Assembly: GCA_951406725.2 (NCBI GenBank)
Contig: OX597821.1
Coordinates: 28,396,001-28,460,000 of the forward strand
From: Octopus vulgaris
Taxonomy: Eukaryota
DNA length: 64,000 nt
Reading direction: 5' to 3'
The notes beneath the pieces were generated by a model. That model saw nothing but the letters and a program-made list of their open reading frames with translations, did not search any database and was not told the origin of the DNA. This document shows positions 10,849 to 58,872 of the stretch, in pieces. Position numbers and translations under genes: made by a program. Numbering within the stretch: position 1 is the first letter of the stretch; each line of letters opens with the position of its first letter.

Positions 10849-11815
10849 TGGGGAGAATTCACAAGAAAAACAATAGACAAAGATAGGTGGTGTAGACAAC
10901 AACCAGATGTACTAGTTTAACGCTCAGGAAGTGAAAAAGTCTTTAACGTTTCGAGCCTGCGTTCTTCCGCAGAAAGAAACACAGAAAGAAGCAGTGAGAG
11001 AAAATAAAGAATGTGTAGTGGCTCGTGATCTATCATGGCGAATGCATGACAGAGGGGTCACACAGAACAGCTAGGAAGAAGAGGAGATAATAAGGTAGTG
11101 GTGATCCCAAAGCGAATGTACGCGTGCGTTATATAAGAGAGCATTTATGTGCGTGTGGAAGAGAGCTGGTGACCTTGGCGTGTGCGTGCGTGCATGTGTA
11201 GGTGTATGGATGATGGTGTGGAGCTGGGAAGTGGTCAGTGCTAGTGTGTGCATGTTGGCGAGATGTGATGTGATTTTGTGTGGTATGGTGGTGCATGGTG
11301 TGGTGGTGTGTGGTGTGTGTAGTGGTGTTGGGATGTGGGAGAGGTGAGACTGGGGAAAGCAAGGGTTGGATGTGGGTTAGGCTGAGGGTGGGGTTAGAGG
11401 TAGAGTATGTCGGAGTGGGTGTAAGGGATGGGGTGAGGGTTGGATGTGATGGATAGTGAAGGAGGGATTGAGTTGTGTAGGGGTGTGGTTACGCGGGAGG
11501 GGTGAAAAAGTGAGGAGGGGACGGGAGAAGGCGGGTAGGAGTGAAGAGGAGAGGGAAGAAGAGTAGGAGTGAAGAGAAAAGTAGGAGTGAAGAGAAGAAG
11601 TAGGAGTGAAGAGAAGAAGTAGGAGTGAAGAGAAAAAGTAGGAATGAAGAGAAGTAGGAATGAAGAGAAGTAGGAGTCGGAGCAAGAGAGGAGACGTGGG
11701 TGGGAGGAAGTATTTTTGAGACGAAGAGAGGAGAAGGGAGGAGGGTTAGATAAGTAGGGGAGGAGAGTTGAGCCCATGTTTTCGCAAAGGAGCGAAGAGA
11801 GAACATTAATCCCTC
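10848..11815 (-). mobile_element. Penelope-like element 3' end / pseudo-LTR with long C/T-rich tail
   Basis: The minus strand reads LMFSLRSFA[frameshift]HGLNSPPLLI*, resembling the PLE GIY-YIG C-terminal L..L.P.GLN motif. Then come about 800 bp of pyrimidine/CA-rich sequence, a hammerhead-like motif at 10941-10976, and an end in (TA)n. Confidence 0.7.
11535..11678. repeat. 15-18 bp minisatellite (gaagagaagaagtaggagt-like)
   Basis: Tandem 'gtaggagtgaagagaagaa' units with variants. Confidence 0.85.
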
Positions 11816-12682
11816 ACTGATGGGAAGATGGTACTTGCCTTTTTCGAACTTGTTAATATAAAAATCAACTATAAATGAAAAATCCTTCAAATACTTAAGA
11901 AGTTGCTAATTTAAAACAAGTTTGTCTTTTCTGATAAATAGATGTTATATTGACTTTTTTCTTTGGAGGAAGGTAAATTTGCTTGTTTTTTTTTACAATC
12001 GAAGATCTAATAATGAGCTTTGATATTGTTTAACTAATTTCTTCAATTTAAAAAAAATATATTATGTTTCATATTATGCACATTCAGTTTATGCATTGCG
12101 CATACATTTAATGGCTCCTTCATAACCAGGATTCCTAATCAAGGTTTTACCTTCATCATTATGATATGTCTTTGTGCCTGATTAATACTAGTGCGACAAG
12201 TAACGATGCACAATCTGCATGTATGTTTCTAATATTTCAACAGACAATTAATATCAAAGTGATTCCATATTTAATGTAACTTTGTTCATAATAACACTGT
12301 AAAATTTCAGTAAAACCTCTTAGCCAAATATTCCACACATTTAAACAAAGTGGAAAATGATAAGTTTCTGTGAATTAATTTTATTATCTCTTAGCAATGT
12401 TTCCGTGATATTTCACTTCTTTCACAATTTACATAAAGGAATATTTAAGTCGAAAATCCCCTGCTTTAATGACTGCCCTCTTCAAAAGTAAGCACTTTCA
12501 AATTGTACAAGTTACGTATAATGAATAAATCGAAATTGATTTATACAGGAACTACTTTTTTGTTTTAACCCATTAAATATTTTAGTAAATTTGTTGCAAA
12601 ATACATTCATATAATCTACGTTCATGTTTCGGATTCTTGCTTCAGATGCATGGGATTCGGCTAATTTTGTTAATGAAGATAT

Positions 12683-13250
12683 CGTCGGCATCCGTCCGTC
12701 TCGAGAGACGATGTTGTAGCTCAGAAAAGGTGGTGGATTTATCTGCACGTCCTGGTGTGGCTGTGCAGACCATTCATCGAGTGGCAGTCGCTACCACATC
12801 TGGTGCAAGTGAAAGGGGATGAGAGATGTGGTTGCTACTGCTGCTCCTTTCGCCTGGTTCTCTTTAATTTGGCAGTAGTGGTCCTCAGGTTCTCTGTTGT
12901 CGCGGCACCATGCTTGACACTGTGTCGCCAGGCGCCTCTGTCGGCAGCGGCGGATTCCCATGTTTGGGTGTTGATCTGGCATAGCTTTAGGTCCTTCTTA
13001 CAGATATCCTCGAAGCGCAGTTTGGGGCGTCCCGTTGATCTGGAGCCTTCCGCTAGCTGTCCGTACAGTAGGTCCTTTGGAATCCGTCCTGACATGACCT
13101 AGCCACTGAAGACGCCTCTCACAGAGTGATGTTTACATACTGTACATGTAGGCACGGTCAAAAACCTCTGTGTTAGTGATCCTTTCCTGCCATTTGGTAT
13201 GGAGAATGCGCTGCAGGCATCTTAGGTGGAAGCTATTGAGTTGTTTCTAA
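12683..13250 (-). mobile_element. RTE-clade LINE 3' fragment
   Basis: Translates LNSFHLRCLQRILHTKWQERITNTEV, then MSGRIPKDLLYGQLAEGSRSTGRPKLRFEDICKKDLK...WESAAADRGAWR, then a C-terminal CTRCGSDCHS..GLHSHTRTC zinc finger. The terminus is 'atcgtctctcgagacggacggatgcc'. Confidence 0.9.
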
Positions 13251-13684
13251 TGAAGATAAGGATGCAGAAAAATCTATAATCTTGGAAGGATCATCCCGAT
13301 ACCATAATAGCTACGCCATACATTTATTAAATATCCCTAGTATCTTTCAATCATTTCTACGTTTTGTTATTTCTAATTTATCATTGATTAATATAATGCC
13401 CCATCATCTTTTAGGCAAACTACTAGTGGAGAGATATTGAAACTGATTCAATATATGAATAGGGCACATGAATGCAAAATATATTCTATGTCCGTAATAC
13501 GTTCGTTGGTAAAAGCGTCCGCCATAAACTTAAAACATTTCATAAAATTATTGGTTATTTAGTTTCCCTGTTATAACATTACTTTAGAAGCTACATATAC
13601 GTTCATTGCCCGCAGAAACTCCAAGTGACTCGCATCCTTTATTTAGAACAATACTACTGTATAATGAAAGCATTCATACCCCCA

Positions 13685-56335: not shown

Positions 56336-57499
56336 TGCGGCGAGTGGGAGGTGTTATGTGAAAAATGTGAGCAAGCTGGAAGATATAGTTCACTAGGCAG
56401 TGAACTAAAGATAAAAACAGAAAGTAGCGTGTTTTTTTTCAAAAGAGACCACGCTAGTCTGCAAGAAACAGTTGAGGCATGTATGTGTATAATAACAATA
56501 CATTGCTATGTTAGAAAAGAGTATCAGTCTAGCGGAGAAAATAGGGCAAGCTTGCGCTTGAAAAGTCTCAAAGTCCGTCAGGGCAACGATAAAGAGAAGG
56601 GGGTGGGAAGAGGATCATAAACCTATCACAGCAGCAACTTAACCAGCAATGAATATATGTTTATATGAATATATACATACATATATATATATATATATAC
56701 ATATATATATTTATATGTATGTATGTATGTATATAGAAATATAGTCAGATGGCTTGAGAGGTTATTAACGACATGACTTTTGTAGGAATACAGGTGTTTC
56801 GCAAACTTCTTTCTATAGTATATATTTCAGTAAGCATCAAATTATGCGTACGTGTCTGCATTAAATATATGCATTGCATTATACCATACAATTTGATAGT
56901 CATATGTTTATATTTATATAAACATATGTTGCACATTTTCGTATATGCACGCAACCATATGTTGTATGTATGTATGTATGTATGTATGTATGTATGTATG
57001 TATATATATATGTGTGTGTGTGTGTGTGTGTGTGCGTGTGTGTGTGTATTTATATATGTATATATATATATGTGTGTGTGTAAATAAATCATACTTTGAT
57101 ACTTTGATAGGATTCGACCAGTATTGGCCCAGGCCTTTTCTAACTTAATAGCACCACCTGGCAAAGTCCTTCAAGTTAGGAATCGGACAACACGGCCTAC
57201 TCGAGGAGAGAGTTACTGTTTAGGGAGACATATCCGGGTGGAGGGCGTTTACTCGGGATTTCTTGAAGAAATTTTTCCAAACGCAATGCTGGAATCATTT
57301 TGAAGCCATTATCATGTAATAATAATTTCATTGTGTAATAAATTGTTTGTAACAGTATGCATGCTACATATTTTATAGTATAATTCTACAATTACAAATA
57401 AATGCAGATACAGAAGTCTAGCCGTTCAGATCACCAGAACATCATTGTTACACCAATGCTTCAATTCTGTTTGCACATACAAGGTTATTCTTTATTTAT

Positions 57500-57979
57500 A
57501 GGGGTGGCTGTGTGGTAAGTAGCTTGCTTACCAAACAGATGGTTCCGCATTCAGTCCCACTGAGTGGCACCTTGGGCAAGTGTCTTCTACTATAGCCTCA
57601 TGCCGACCAAAGCCTTGTGAGTGGATTTGGCAGACGGAAATTGAAAGAAGCCCGTCATATATATGTATGTATATATATATTTTTATATATATATATATAT
57701 ATATATATATATATATATATATATATATATATATATATGTATGTATGTATGTATGTGTGTGTTTGTGTGTCTCTGCTTGTCTCCCCAACATCGCTTGACA
57801 GCTGATGCTGGTGTGTTTACGTCACCGTAACTTAACGGTTCGGCAAAAGGGTCCAATAGAATAAGTACTAGGCTTACAAAGAATAAATCCTGGGGTCGAT
57901 TTGCTCAACTAAATGCGGTGGTGCAGCATGGCCACAGTCAAATGACTGAAACAAGTAAAAGAGTAAAGAGTAAAGAGTA
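57500..57979 (+). mobile_element. SINE family A
   Basis: Same head, body and tail as 13685. Expanded internal (TA)n and (AAAGAGT)n tail. Confidence 0.93.
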
Positions 57980-58701
57980 TACACTTTTCTGTTATCAAGT
58001 GGAATGCAGAATATTAGTTGAGTGATTTTCCCATCCTTAATGTAGAAAAAAACAGGAAAGAGATAGGGGCAGAGGGAGGGTAGTAGGATTCAACAAAACA
58101 ATATTTTGAAGGTGTTTAAAAATGTATATAAGCAATAAAACACAGTATTATATGTATGAATTCTGTTGGAAACAGAAGCTTTATAGTTTTGACCAACTGT
58201 TATTTCCAAATGGGACTAAAGGCCAGACGCCCTTCAAATGCATTGTTTCAATAAACTGTACTTAAGTCAACACATCTAGCTAGGGAACATATTTCTATAA
58301 GATTTAGTATGCTAAAAAAATTAAGAAATAATAAAATAAAAATATAATTACACTGCAACACTGACCCAGCTGTATATTTATACATCTATTAATATACATA
58401 CCTGCTATAGAGAAACATACATTAGTGCACTCCCAAACATATGTATGCATACATAACTAAAACACATAACATAGCTACGTGAAACATATGCATACACAAA
58501 ATAAATAATATACATATACAAATAAATGTACGACAGGAATATATATGCAAATGCATCTACAGCCTCAAATATGCATATGGACATGCATATGTCTTTATAC
58601 GACACGACTATATACACAAATTACAGGGTCACAAAACACAAACACACACAAATATATACATACGTGTATATATATATATATGTATATGTATATGTATATA
58701 T

Positions 58702-58872
58702 AGTTAATCCAAACAAGAAAGCACAAAAAACATAACAACGCGAGGACTTGGAACAAATATAGTATTATTGGACGCTCAGGAAAGAAGGAAAGAAGGAGGG
58801 TGTAACGTTTCGAGCGGAGCTCTTCGTCGGAAACATAGAAGAAGGAAAGATCCAGAGAAGGGAAGACAGAGG
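58702..58872 (-). mobile_element. Penelope-like pseudo-LTR fragment (family P2) with hammerhead-like motif
   Basis: Homologous to the 33200 and 55104 copies. Motif at 58800-58834. TA repeats on both sides. Confidence 0.7.

What the first reader, a model, noticed from the sequence alone, without database searches (positions are those of the whole stretch)
10941..58834. Family of minimal, non-canonical hammerhead-like motifs (CCGANGA core, AACGUU palindrome) on elements ending in (TA)n
Seen: four minus-strand motifs share one layout, stem I - core - A - stem II - GAAA-CG-UU - stem I'. They are gttt-CCGATGA-a-gggc tcc actc-GAAAcgtt-aaac (33301-33335), gttt-TCGACGA-a-gagc ttc gctc-GAAAcgtt-aaac (55213-55247), gttt-CCGACGA-a-gagc tcc gctc-GAAAcgtt-acac (58800-58834) and cttt-CTGCGGA-a-gaac gcag gctc-GAAAcgtt-aaag (10941-10976). 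Stem I shows a compensatory G-C to C-G swap between the two families, and the 10.9-kb copy lies downstream of a Penelope GIY-YIG C-terminus. Established: Penelope-like elements carry minimal type I hammerheads in pseudo-LTRs, with a palindromic stem III thought to act as a dimer. Inference: all three P2 copies have C at the normally invariant U4, so this may be a lineage-specific variant core rather than decay.
Basis: partly seen in the sequence, partly recalled or inferred. Interest (0 to 1): 0.7.

Follow-up and report, generated by a model that had tools for sequence, protein, structure and literature searches.

The report
Penelope hammerheads with altered catalytic cores
The four motifs are the tails of two very abundant Penelope-like jumping-gene families, each carrying a small hammerhead RNA shape in which thousands of copies share one changed core letter; these versions likely cut themselves slowly at best, which is untested and would make them a natural test of whether such elements need to cut their RNA.

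Summary
All four motifs are real. They are 3' ends (pseudo-LTRs) of two Neptune-like Penelope families, and apart from one core letter each they fit the published minimal hammerhead of such elements. Family P2 (33.3, 55.2, 58.8 kb): C4 is not decay. There are 5,048 exact C4 copies, 1,140 U4 and 196 of the CpG-decay control, and C4 marks the youngest clade. With one generic pattern, variant cores outnumber canonical ones 34,186 to 7,730. Across A6U subfamilies only positions 7 and 17 change (0 of 30 constrained columns against 12 and 15 of 46 flank columns). Copies almost never begin at the predicted cut. Best reading: weakened, dimer-dependent hammerheads whose fold is kept; cleavage untested. 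U4C is known from a viroid; I found no paper on A6U in these elements. This scan noted A6U before, in this genome and others.

The parts
33198..33370 (-). Family P2 3' end (pseudo-LTR fragment), 5'-truncated, 95% identical to a young copy
33301..33335 (-). Minimal hammerhead motif, core CCGATGA (C4 at 33330); private stem II mismatch; predicted cut between 33305 and 33304 (inferred from standard numbering)
33160..33202 (-). Last ~40 bases of a family A element directly behind the P2 copy, before the (TA)n tract
55098..55322 (-). Family P2 3' end of the common ~215-base length, 87% identical to a young copy, between TA-rich tracts
55213..55247 (-). Minimal hammerhead motif, core TCGACGA (C4 at 55242; U3 is private to this copy)
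58696..58873 (-). Family P2 3' end, 5'-truncated, 96% identical to a young copy, between (TA)n tracts
58800..58834 (-). Minimal hammerhead motif, core CCGACGA (C4 at 58829); private stem I mismatch at 58802
10850..11814 (-). Family A Penelope-like element, 5'-truncated: last endonuclease codons, long pyrimidine/CA-rich 3' region, pseudo-LTR; ends in (TA)n
11756..11815 (-). Remnant of the last ~20 codons of the GIY-YIG domain (frameshifted relative to relatives)
10941..10976 (-). Minimal hammerhead motif of family A; this copy reads CTGCGGA (C6 at 10969), the family reads CTGTNGA (A6U)

Best explanation
The motifs are minimal type I hammerhead shapes in the 3' pseudo-LTRs of two Neptune-like Penelope retroelement families, one with U4C fixed in its youngest subfamily and one with A6U fixed across several subfamilies, and they are likely weakened, dimer-dependent self-cutters whose fold is still kept while the elements spread from mostly uncut RNA. 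Shown: position in the element, link to RT and GIY-YIG bodies, subfamily-wide core changes, the conservation pattern, and that genomic copies span the predicted cut. From published work: minimal hammerheads need a partner motif pairing through the ACGU palindrome and are slow even when canonical, and changes at positions 4 and 6 lower activity. Inferred: the motif lies about 100 bases from the 3' end where reverse transcription would start at (TA)n targets, so a cut there would sever the priming tail from the body unless the RNA is re-joined. A slower core would therefore be tolerated or even favoured.
For: PLE link: 18 of 20 loci picked by the P2 endonuclease region carry the P2 tail 1.0-2.5 kb downstream (one with the motif deleted; some of these loci are neighbours and may be duplicates). 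Of the 14 P2 motifs printed there, 12 have C4. L213 and L204 show tail-body-tail tandems with the same junction and a C4 upstream motif. Family A relatives carry RT, a Cys linker and GIY-YIG pieces upstream. Layout: matches the published consensus CUGANGAH G..C GAAAN palindrome NUH, where CGUU is a common form (PMC4209133 supplement). Not decay: C4 5,048, U4 1,140, G5A control 196. C4 copies form a nested clade with linked diagnostic sites, with median pairwise distance 0.044 (n=39) against 0.086 for U4 (n=29). U6 in 98 of the first 100 listed scaffold matches and A6 in none (hand tally); U6 in all 13 copies of the 1-Mb sample (16 hits) whose core is present. Fold kept: between family A groups 0 of 30 core and stem columns differ against 12 of 46 and 15 of 46 held-out flank columns (Fisher p 0.002 and 0.0002), while position 7 takes four states and position 17 two (A, U). 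Stems vary with pairing kept between families. Weakening: U4C lowers activity in vitro yet supports viroid infectivity, and natural A6C cleaves at under 0.1 per minute (PMC3088659). In a deep scan, CUGA-turn mutants other than the C3-G8 swap had low activity (PMC9901934). Uncut templates: 27 copies genome-wide keep the 31 bases after the cut but lack the CG before it, several of them small indels, against at least 6,188 copies with the intact motif. 0 of 45 P2 and 0 of 33 family A copies found by their downstream flank start at the cut.
Against: No cleavage was measured and no value for A6U was found. No copy with an intact ORF was seen in the 20 long P2 loci, so present activity is not shown. 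Monomers do not fold as hammerheads in prediction: z-scores 0.14, 0.66, 0.22 and -0.59 for the window copies, stem I pair probability at most 0.01 there and at most 0.23 in young copies. This is expected for dimer-type motifs but gives no support. The constraint test has no power for P2 (1 of 30 against 2 of 51; 0 of 30 against 3 of 51), so U4C may be plain drift in one master. In family A, 30 loci were picked by a pattern that fixes 16 of the 30 columns; the other 14 also did not differ, but only 51 and 57 of 82 copies fell into groups, and the groups are related. Loop II is also unchanged in family A (0 of 4), which a catalytic constraint alone does not need. There is no covariation within either family. 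Lack of copies starting at the cut was not compared with a canonical family, so it may hold for active motifs too.
Confidence: 0.55

Rival explanations
1. The variant motifs no longer cut at all; the fold or sequence is kept as a binding or priming signal for the element's RT-endonuclease (or as part of the pseudo-LTR promoter).
For: No pile-up of 5' ends at the cut. Both upstream motifs in the tandem copies L213 and L204 were copied whole. Loop II and a downstream block (CCYGAGCG) are also conserved across subfamilies and both families. Naiad elements spread without canonical hammerheads (PMC8557442).
Against: The only motif positions that differ between family A groups are 7 and 17, which the hammerhead consensus leaves free (N7, H17 in PMC3088659). 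G17 is seen in 1 of 82 and 1 of 123 copies and never as a group state. Natural changes at 4 and 6 keep low but real activity.
Confidence: 0.25
2. The core changes are neutral accidents in a few master copies; nothing constrains the motif now, and copy number reflects only the success of those masters.
For: For P2, position 4 is the only motif column that differs and flanks differ about as rarely. C4 arose recently, once. All long copies examined are broken.
Against: For family A the motif stayed unchanged while 26-33% of flank columns changed between groups. U6 is shared by subfamilies up to about 20% apart. Unchecked notes of this scan report A6U in other animals too.
Confidence: 0.12
3. The variants cut efficiently in the cell, helped by proteins or by pairing with a canonical motif through the shared palindrome; cut RNA is re-joined into circles, so copies span the cut site.
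For: Circle-based copying and host help are proposed for PLE hammerheads (PMC4209133; PMC6765202). Canonical sister motifs with the same stem I exist for both families.
Against: No direct sign: there is no excess of ends at the cut, and positions 4 and 6 are not rescued by second changes in the deep scan. A6 copies of family A are rare and old (0 of 100; 16-23% from U6 copies).
Confidence: 0.08

Closest known systems
Minimal hammerheads (min-HHR) in pseudo-LTRs of metazoan Penelope-like elements (Cervera and De la Pena 2014, PMC4209133)
   Same: Position in the pseudo-LTR; short helix I; extra base between 9 and 10.1; G10.1-C11.1; GAAA-CG-U-H with no helix III; U-rich flank; mostly solitary, 5'-truncated copies; several families per genome.
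   Different: Core reads CCGANGA or CUGUNGA. The representative alignment (supplement parts 1-2 as read) shows only CUGA or the U3-A8 form, and no cephalopod. Helix II is 4 pairs with a 3-4 base loop.
Natural core variants U4C (viroid) and A6C (phage Bcep176), as reported in Perreault et al. 2011 (PMC3088659)
   Same: Changes at the same two positions of the CUGA turn; low but real activity.
   Different: Those are rare variants in full hammerheads. Here they are fixed in more than ten thousand copies each of a minimal, dimer-type motif without known loop contacts, and the change at 6 is to U.
Neptune clade of Penelope-like elements (as described in PMC8557442)
   Same: C-terminal GIY-YIG after RT, Cys-rich linker (C-x4-C-x2-C in the translations), tandem tail-body-tail copies, insertion at (TA)n.
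   Different: Clade not tested by a tree; long (about 1-2.5 kb) low-complexity 3' region; no intact ORF seen in the copies examined.
Non-LTR retrozymes (Cervera and De la Pena 2020, PMC7229834)
   Same: Short non-coding units with a type I hammerhead, very abundant in an animal genome.
   Different: Retrozymes are tandem repeats with canonical type I motifs; these are dispersed 3' ends that continue into a PLE body.

Membership tests
min-HHR of metazoan PLEs | Lies in the pseudo-LTR of an element with RT and GIY-YIG | tested here: met
   Pfam GIY-YIG E 0.0019 on 1 of 7 pieces, below the curated cut-off
min-HHR of metazoan PLEs | Helix I and helix II with G10.1-C11.1 and an extra base after A9 | tested here: met
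   pairing kept through changes between families, none within
min-HHR of metazoan PLEs | GAAA, palindromic 15.2-16.2, U16.1, H17, no helix III | tested here: met
   (self-duplex of the palindrome, -3.5 kcal/mol)
min-HHR of metazoan PLEs | Core CUGANGA (or the U3-A8 form) | tested here: not met
   U4C in young P2, A6U in family A; met by their older sister subfamilies. Hence a variant, not a plain member.
min-HHR of metazoan PLEs | Self-cleavage as a dimer | not testable with these tools
   only indirect: no excess of copy ends at the cut
Neptune-clade PLE | C-terminal GIY-YIG with a Cys linker after RT; (TA)n targets | tested here: met
   translations; flanks
Neptune-clade PLE | RT phylogeny within Neptune | not tested
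   no tree of the proteins was built
Non-LTR retrozyme | Tandem short units with a canonical type I hammerhead and no ORF link | tested here: not met
   dispersed copies continuing into PLE bodies

The most novel reading that the evidence does not exclude
A6U, and more recently U4C, are selected slow-cutting hammerhead cores. Penelope lineages gain by damping the ribozyme so that the 3' motif survives until reverse transcription has passed it, while the rest of the catalytic fold stays under selection. These variant cores, invisible to standard CUGANGA searches, are the commonest minimal hammerheads in this genome (34,186 against 7,730 with one pattern), and A6U may have arisen repeatedly in distant animals.
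Probability: 0.3. Interest if true: 0.72.

Novelty: new variant of a known kind. Interest (0 to 1): 0.5.

Why it matters
What hammerheads do for Penelope-like elements is described as unclear in the papers read (PMC4209133, PMC8557442). Here sister subfamilies differ by one core letter on an otherwise identical motif (U4 and C4; A6 and U6), and the variant forms are the ones that multiplied most. That gives matched natural pairs for a simple cleavage test. It also means that searches fixed on CUGANGA miss about four fifths of these motifs in this genome. If A6U cuts, the accepted invariant core needs widening; if not, the fold has a second, non-catalytic job.

Tried and rejected
CpG decay as the source of the C4/U4 split: rejected, since the opposite-strand product is 196 against 1,140 U4 and U4 copies carry linked older sites. 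Rfam: the 150 best listed of 381 matches in the window are almost all microsatellite-driven miRNA models, all below their gathering scores, and none is a hammerhead; the other 231 were not shown. A switch in which the downstream YGAGC block pairs with the 3' strand of stem II and G12: it appears in some predicted folds, but one family with a different stem II keeps the block without a matching change (L239, a single copy), so it is not supported. Expression: no RNA holder listed; run X1 is RNA only by guess and all runs are contigs, so no ends or levels could be read. A branch-by-branch count of changes could not be made; group-wise letter frequencies were used instead. The random sample stayed at 1.0 Mb. 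No covariance model was built, because stems are invariant within families and only one copy each was at hand for three other families. Lunse et al. 2017 and a review of core substitutions were not held. A look-up of earlier notes by sequence gave nothing.
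Full report
Observation. The four motifs read as described on the minus strand, and each element runs into (TA)n about 90-115 bases further on. The three P2 copies are 84-92% alike over about 175 bases. 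The genome is 2.8 Gb in 227 contigs; it is likely an octopus, which I infer from its size and repeat content and from earlier notes, not from a label. Exact patterns give thousands of matches, against 0-9 for the reversed patterns. A strict descriptor recovers only 1 of the 4 window motifs because the others carry private mismatches.

Family P2. With the 35-base motif held fixed, C4 occurs 5,048 times, U4 1,140 times and the G5A control for CpG decay 196 times. In a tree of 69 copies, C4 copies form a nested young clade, with one U4 copy inside it and one old C4 outlier; several other sites are linked to the split. Median pairwise distance is 0.044 for C4 and 0.086 for U4. Many of these copies were picked by similarity or pattern. 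In 100 evenly placed 10-kb stretches, searched with the downstream flank only, 16 P2 hits were found; 12 had the core, 6 with C4 and 6 with U4. In contigs of four public runs under three organism labels, U4 made up 27, 20, 22 and 25% of depth at this place (depth is not copy number). So U4C was fixed in the master of the latest large burst, and the ancestors were canonical.

P2 is a Penelope tail. A few copies continue upstream. Walking on gave a long CA-rich region and then a GIY-YIG C-terminus. Of 20 loci chosen by that region, 18 carry the P2 tail 1.0-2.5 kb downstream; RT pieces and a C-x4-C-x2-C linker lie upstream, and all frames are broken. L213 and L204 show tail-body-tail tandems with one junction, and their upstream motifs have C4 and begin before the predicted cut. 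Pfam gives GIY-YIG at E 0.0019 for 1 of 7 pieces, under its cut-off. The Neptune label rests on the domain order and linker described in PMC8557442 (passages), not on a tree.

Family A. Relatives of the 10.9-kb copy share sequence from 11814 downward and carry RT, linker and GIY-YIG pieces upstream; the window keeps about 20 codons. The family core is CTGTNGA: U6 in 98, C6 in 2 and A6 in 0 of the first 100 of 4,962 scaffold matches (hand tally). U6 was in all 13 copies of the unbiased sample (16 hits) whose core is present, and made up 96-99% of depth in the four runs. Three A6 copies turned up in the canonical search; the two measured lie 16-23% from their nearest U6 copies. With one generic pattern the genome holds 23,155 A6U, 11,031 U4C and 7,730 canonical motifs. 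The pattern fixes the flanking letters of these families, so it does not count every hammerhead. Sixteen hits per Mb extrapolate to roughly 45,000 copies per family.

Is the fold still constrained? Of 85 family A copies, 82 were kept and grouped on half of the flank columns; 51 and 57 fell into groups of three or more. Between groups, 0 of 30 core and stem columns differ, against 12 of 46 and 15 of 46 held-out flank columns (p 0.002 and 0.0002). Positions 7 (A, C, G, T) and 17 (A, T) differ; loop II does not. Caveats: 30 loci came from a pattern fixing 16 of the 30 columns, collection allowed four mismatches in the motif, and the groups are related. For P2 (123 of 127 kept) only position 4 differs, and flanks differ in 2-3 of 51, so the test has no power. 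Single copies of three other families have canonical cores and different stems, with pairing kept at the inner pairs.

Signs of cutting. None. Only 27 copies keep the 31 bases after the cut and lack the CG before it, and several of these are small indels. Of copies found by the downstream flank and not chosen for their motif, 0 of 45 and 0 of 33 start within 3 bases of the cut. No canonical family was run as control. Predicted monomers do not favour the hammerhead fold.

Mechanism. Published: minimal PLE hammerheads lack helix III, are inactive as monomers and weakly active as dimers (PMC4209133; main text parts 1-2 of 4 read). U4C lowers activity but allows viroid infection, and A6C cleaves at under 0.1 per minute (PMC3088659; passages and section 8). 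CUGA-turn mutants had low activity with no rescue except the C3-G8 swap (PMC9901934; passages). Inferred: these motifs cut slowly, and only when two meet through ACGU. Since the motif sits near the end where reverse transcription would begin, uncut RNA makes the longer insertions, so damping costs little or helps. I put this at 0.55, a dead but bound fold at 0.25, plain drift at 0.12 and full activity with circles at 0.08.

What is in print. The supplement of PMC4209133 (file 2, parts 1-2 of 3 and a term search; file 1 could not be searched) lists representatives with CUGA or UUGA cores only and no octopus. Searches for hammerhead with Penelope and octopus, U4C, A6U, CUGUNGA, noncanonical or relaxed cores gave no paper describing these variants in PLEs. 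A 2026 octopus repeat annotation mentions Penelope-like elements but no ribozyme (PMC13282606; passages). PMC7229834, PMC6765202 and bioRxiv 10.64898/2026.07.22.740005 were seen as passages; supplements of the preprint were not seen. Lunse et al. 2017 on small PLE-associated variants was not held; I saw only its reference line and a review's summary, and it could bear on novelty.

Earlier notes of this scan report A6U and other variant cores in this genome and in others, sharks included. They are unchecked; one prompted the test of copy starts.

Verdict. A real feature of a known kind with two fixed core variants. U4C is recent and has a precedent; A6U is older, more abundant and shows signs of a kept fold. 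New variant of a known kind; interest 0.5.

Noticed in passing
Family P2, e.g. window 55322 and L007, L011, L015: 49 of 69 alignments start within the first 10 bases of the reference copy, about 105 bases before the predicted cut, and only 5 were seen to continue into the element body. This may be a transcription start, a short non-autonomous form or a microhomology-favoured stop; unexplained.
   Followed up: partly
window 33160-33202: The last ~40 bases of a family A element sit directly behind the 33.3-kb P2 copy.
   Followed up: no
window 33273-33282, 10920-10929; both families: A block CCYGAGCG 15-25 bases after the motif is conserved in both families although the flanks are otherwise far apart.
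   Followed up: partly
L210:2799 and 7621 (minus), L052, L243, L239, L223, L277, L237: At least four further repeat families with canonical CUGANGA cores and different stems.
   Followed up: no
L128:9626: A CTGTCGA core on a different, partly mismatched stem II; possibly a second, unrelated A6U family (single copy).
   Followed up: no
L279, L280 (G000:C1 near 2.51 Mb): Two family A tails in tandem about 1.55 kb apart with endonuclease sequence between them, a natural setting for a cis dimer.
   Followed up: no
L203, L216, L021: Pairs of P2 motifs on opposite strands; in L203 and L021 within a few hundred bases, like the inverted arrangements described for PLEs.
   Followed up: no
window 12515-13098, minus strand: A frameshifted reading frame that looks like the end of an RTE-type LINE (label recalled, not tested).
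   Followed up: no
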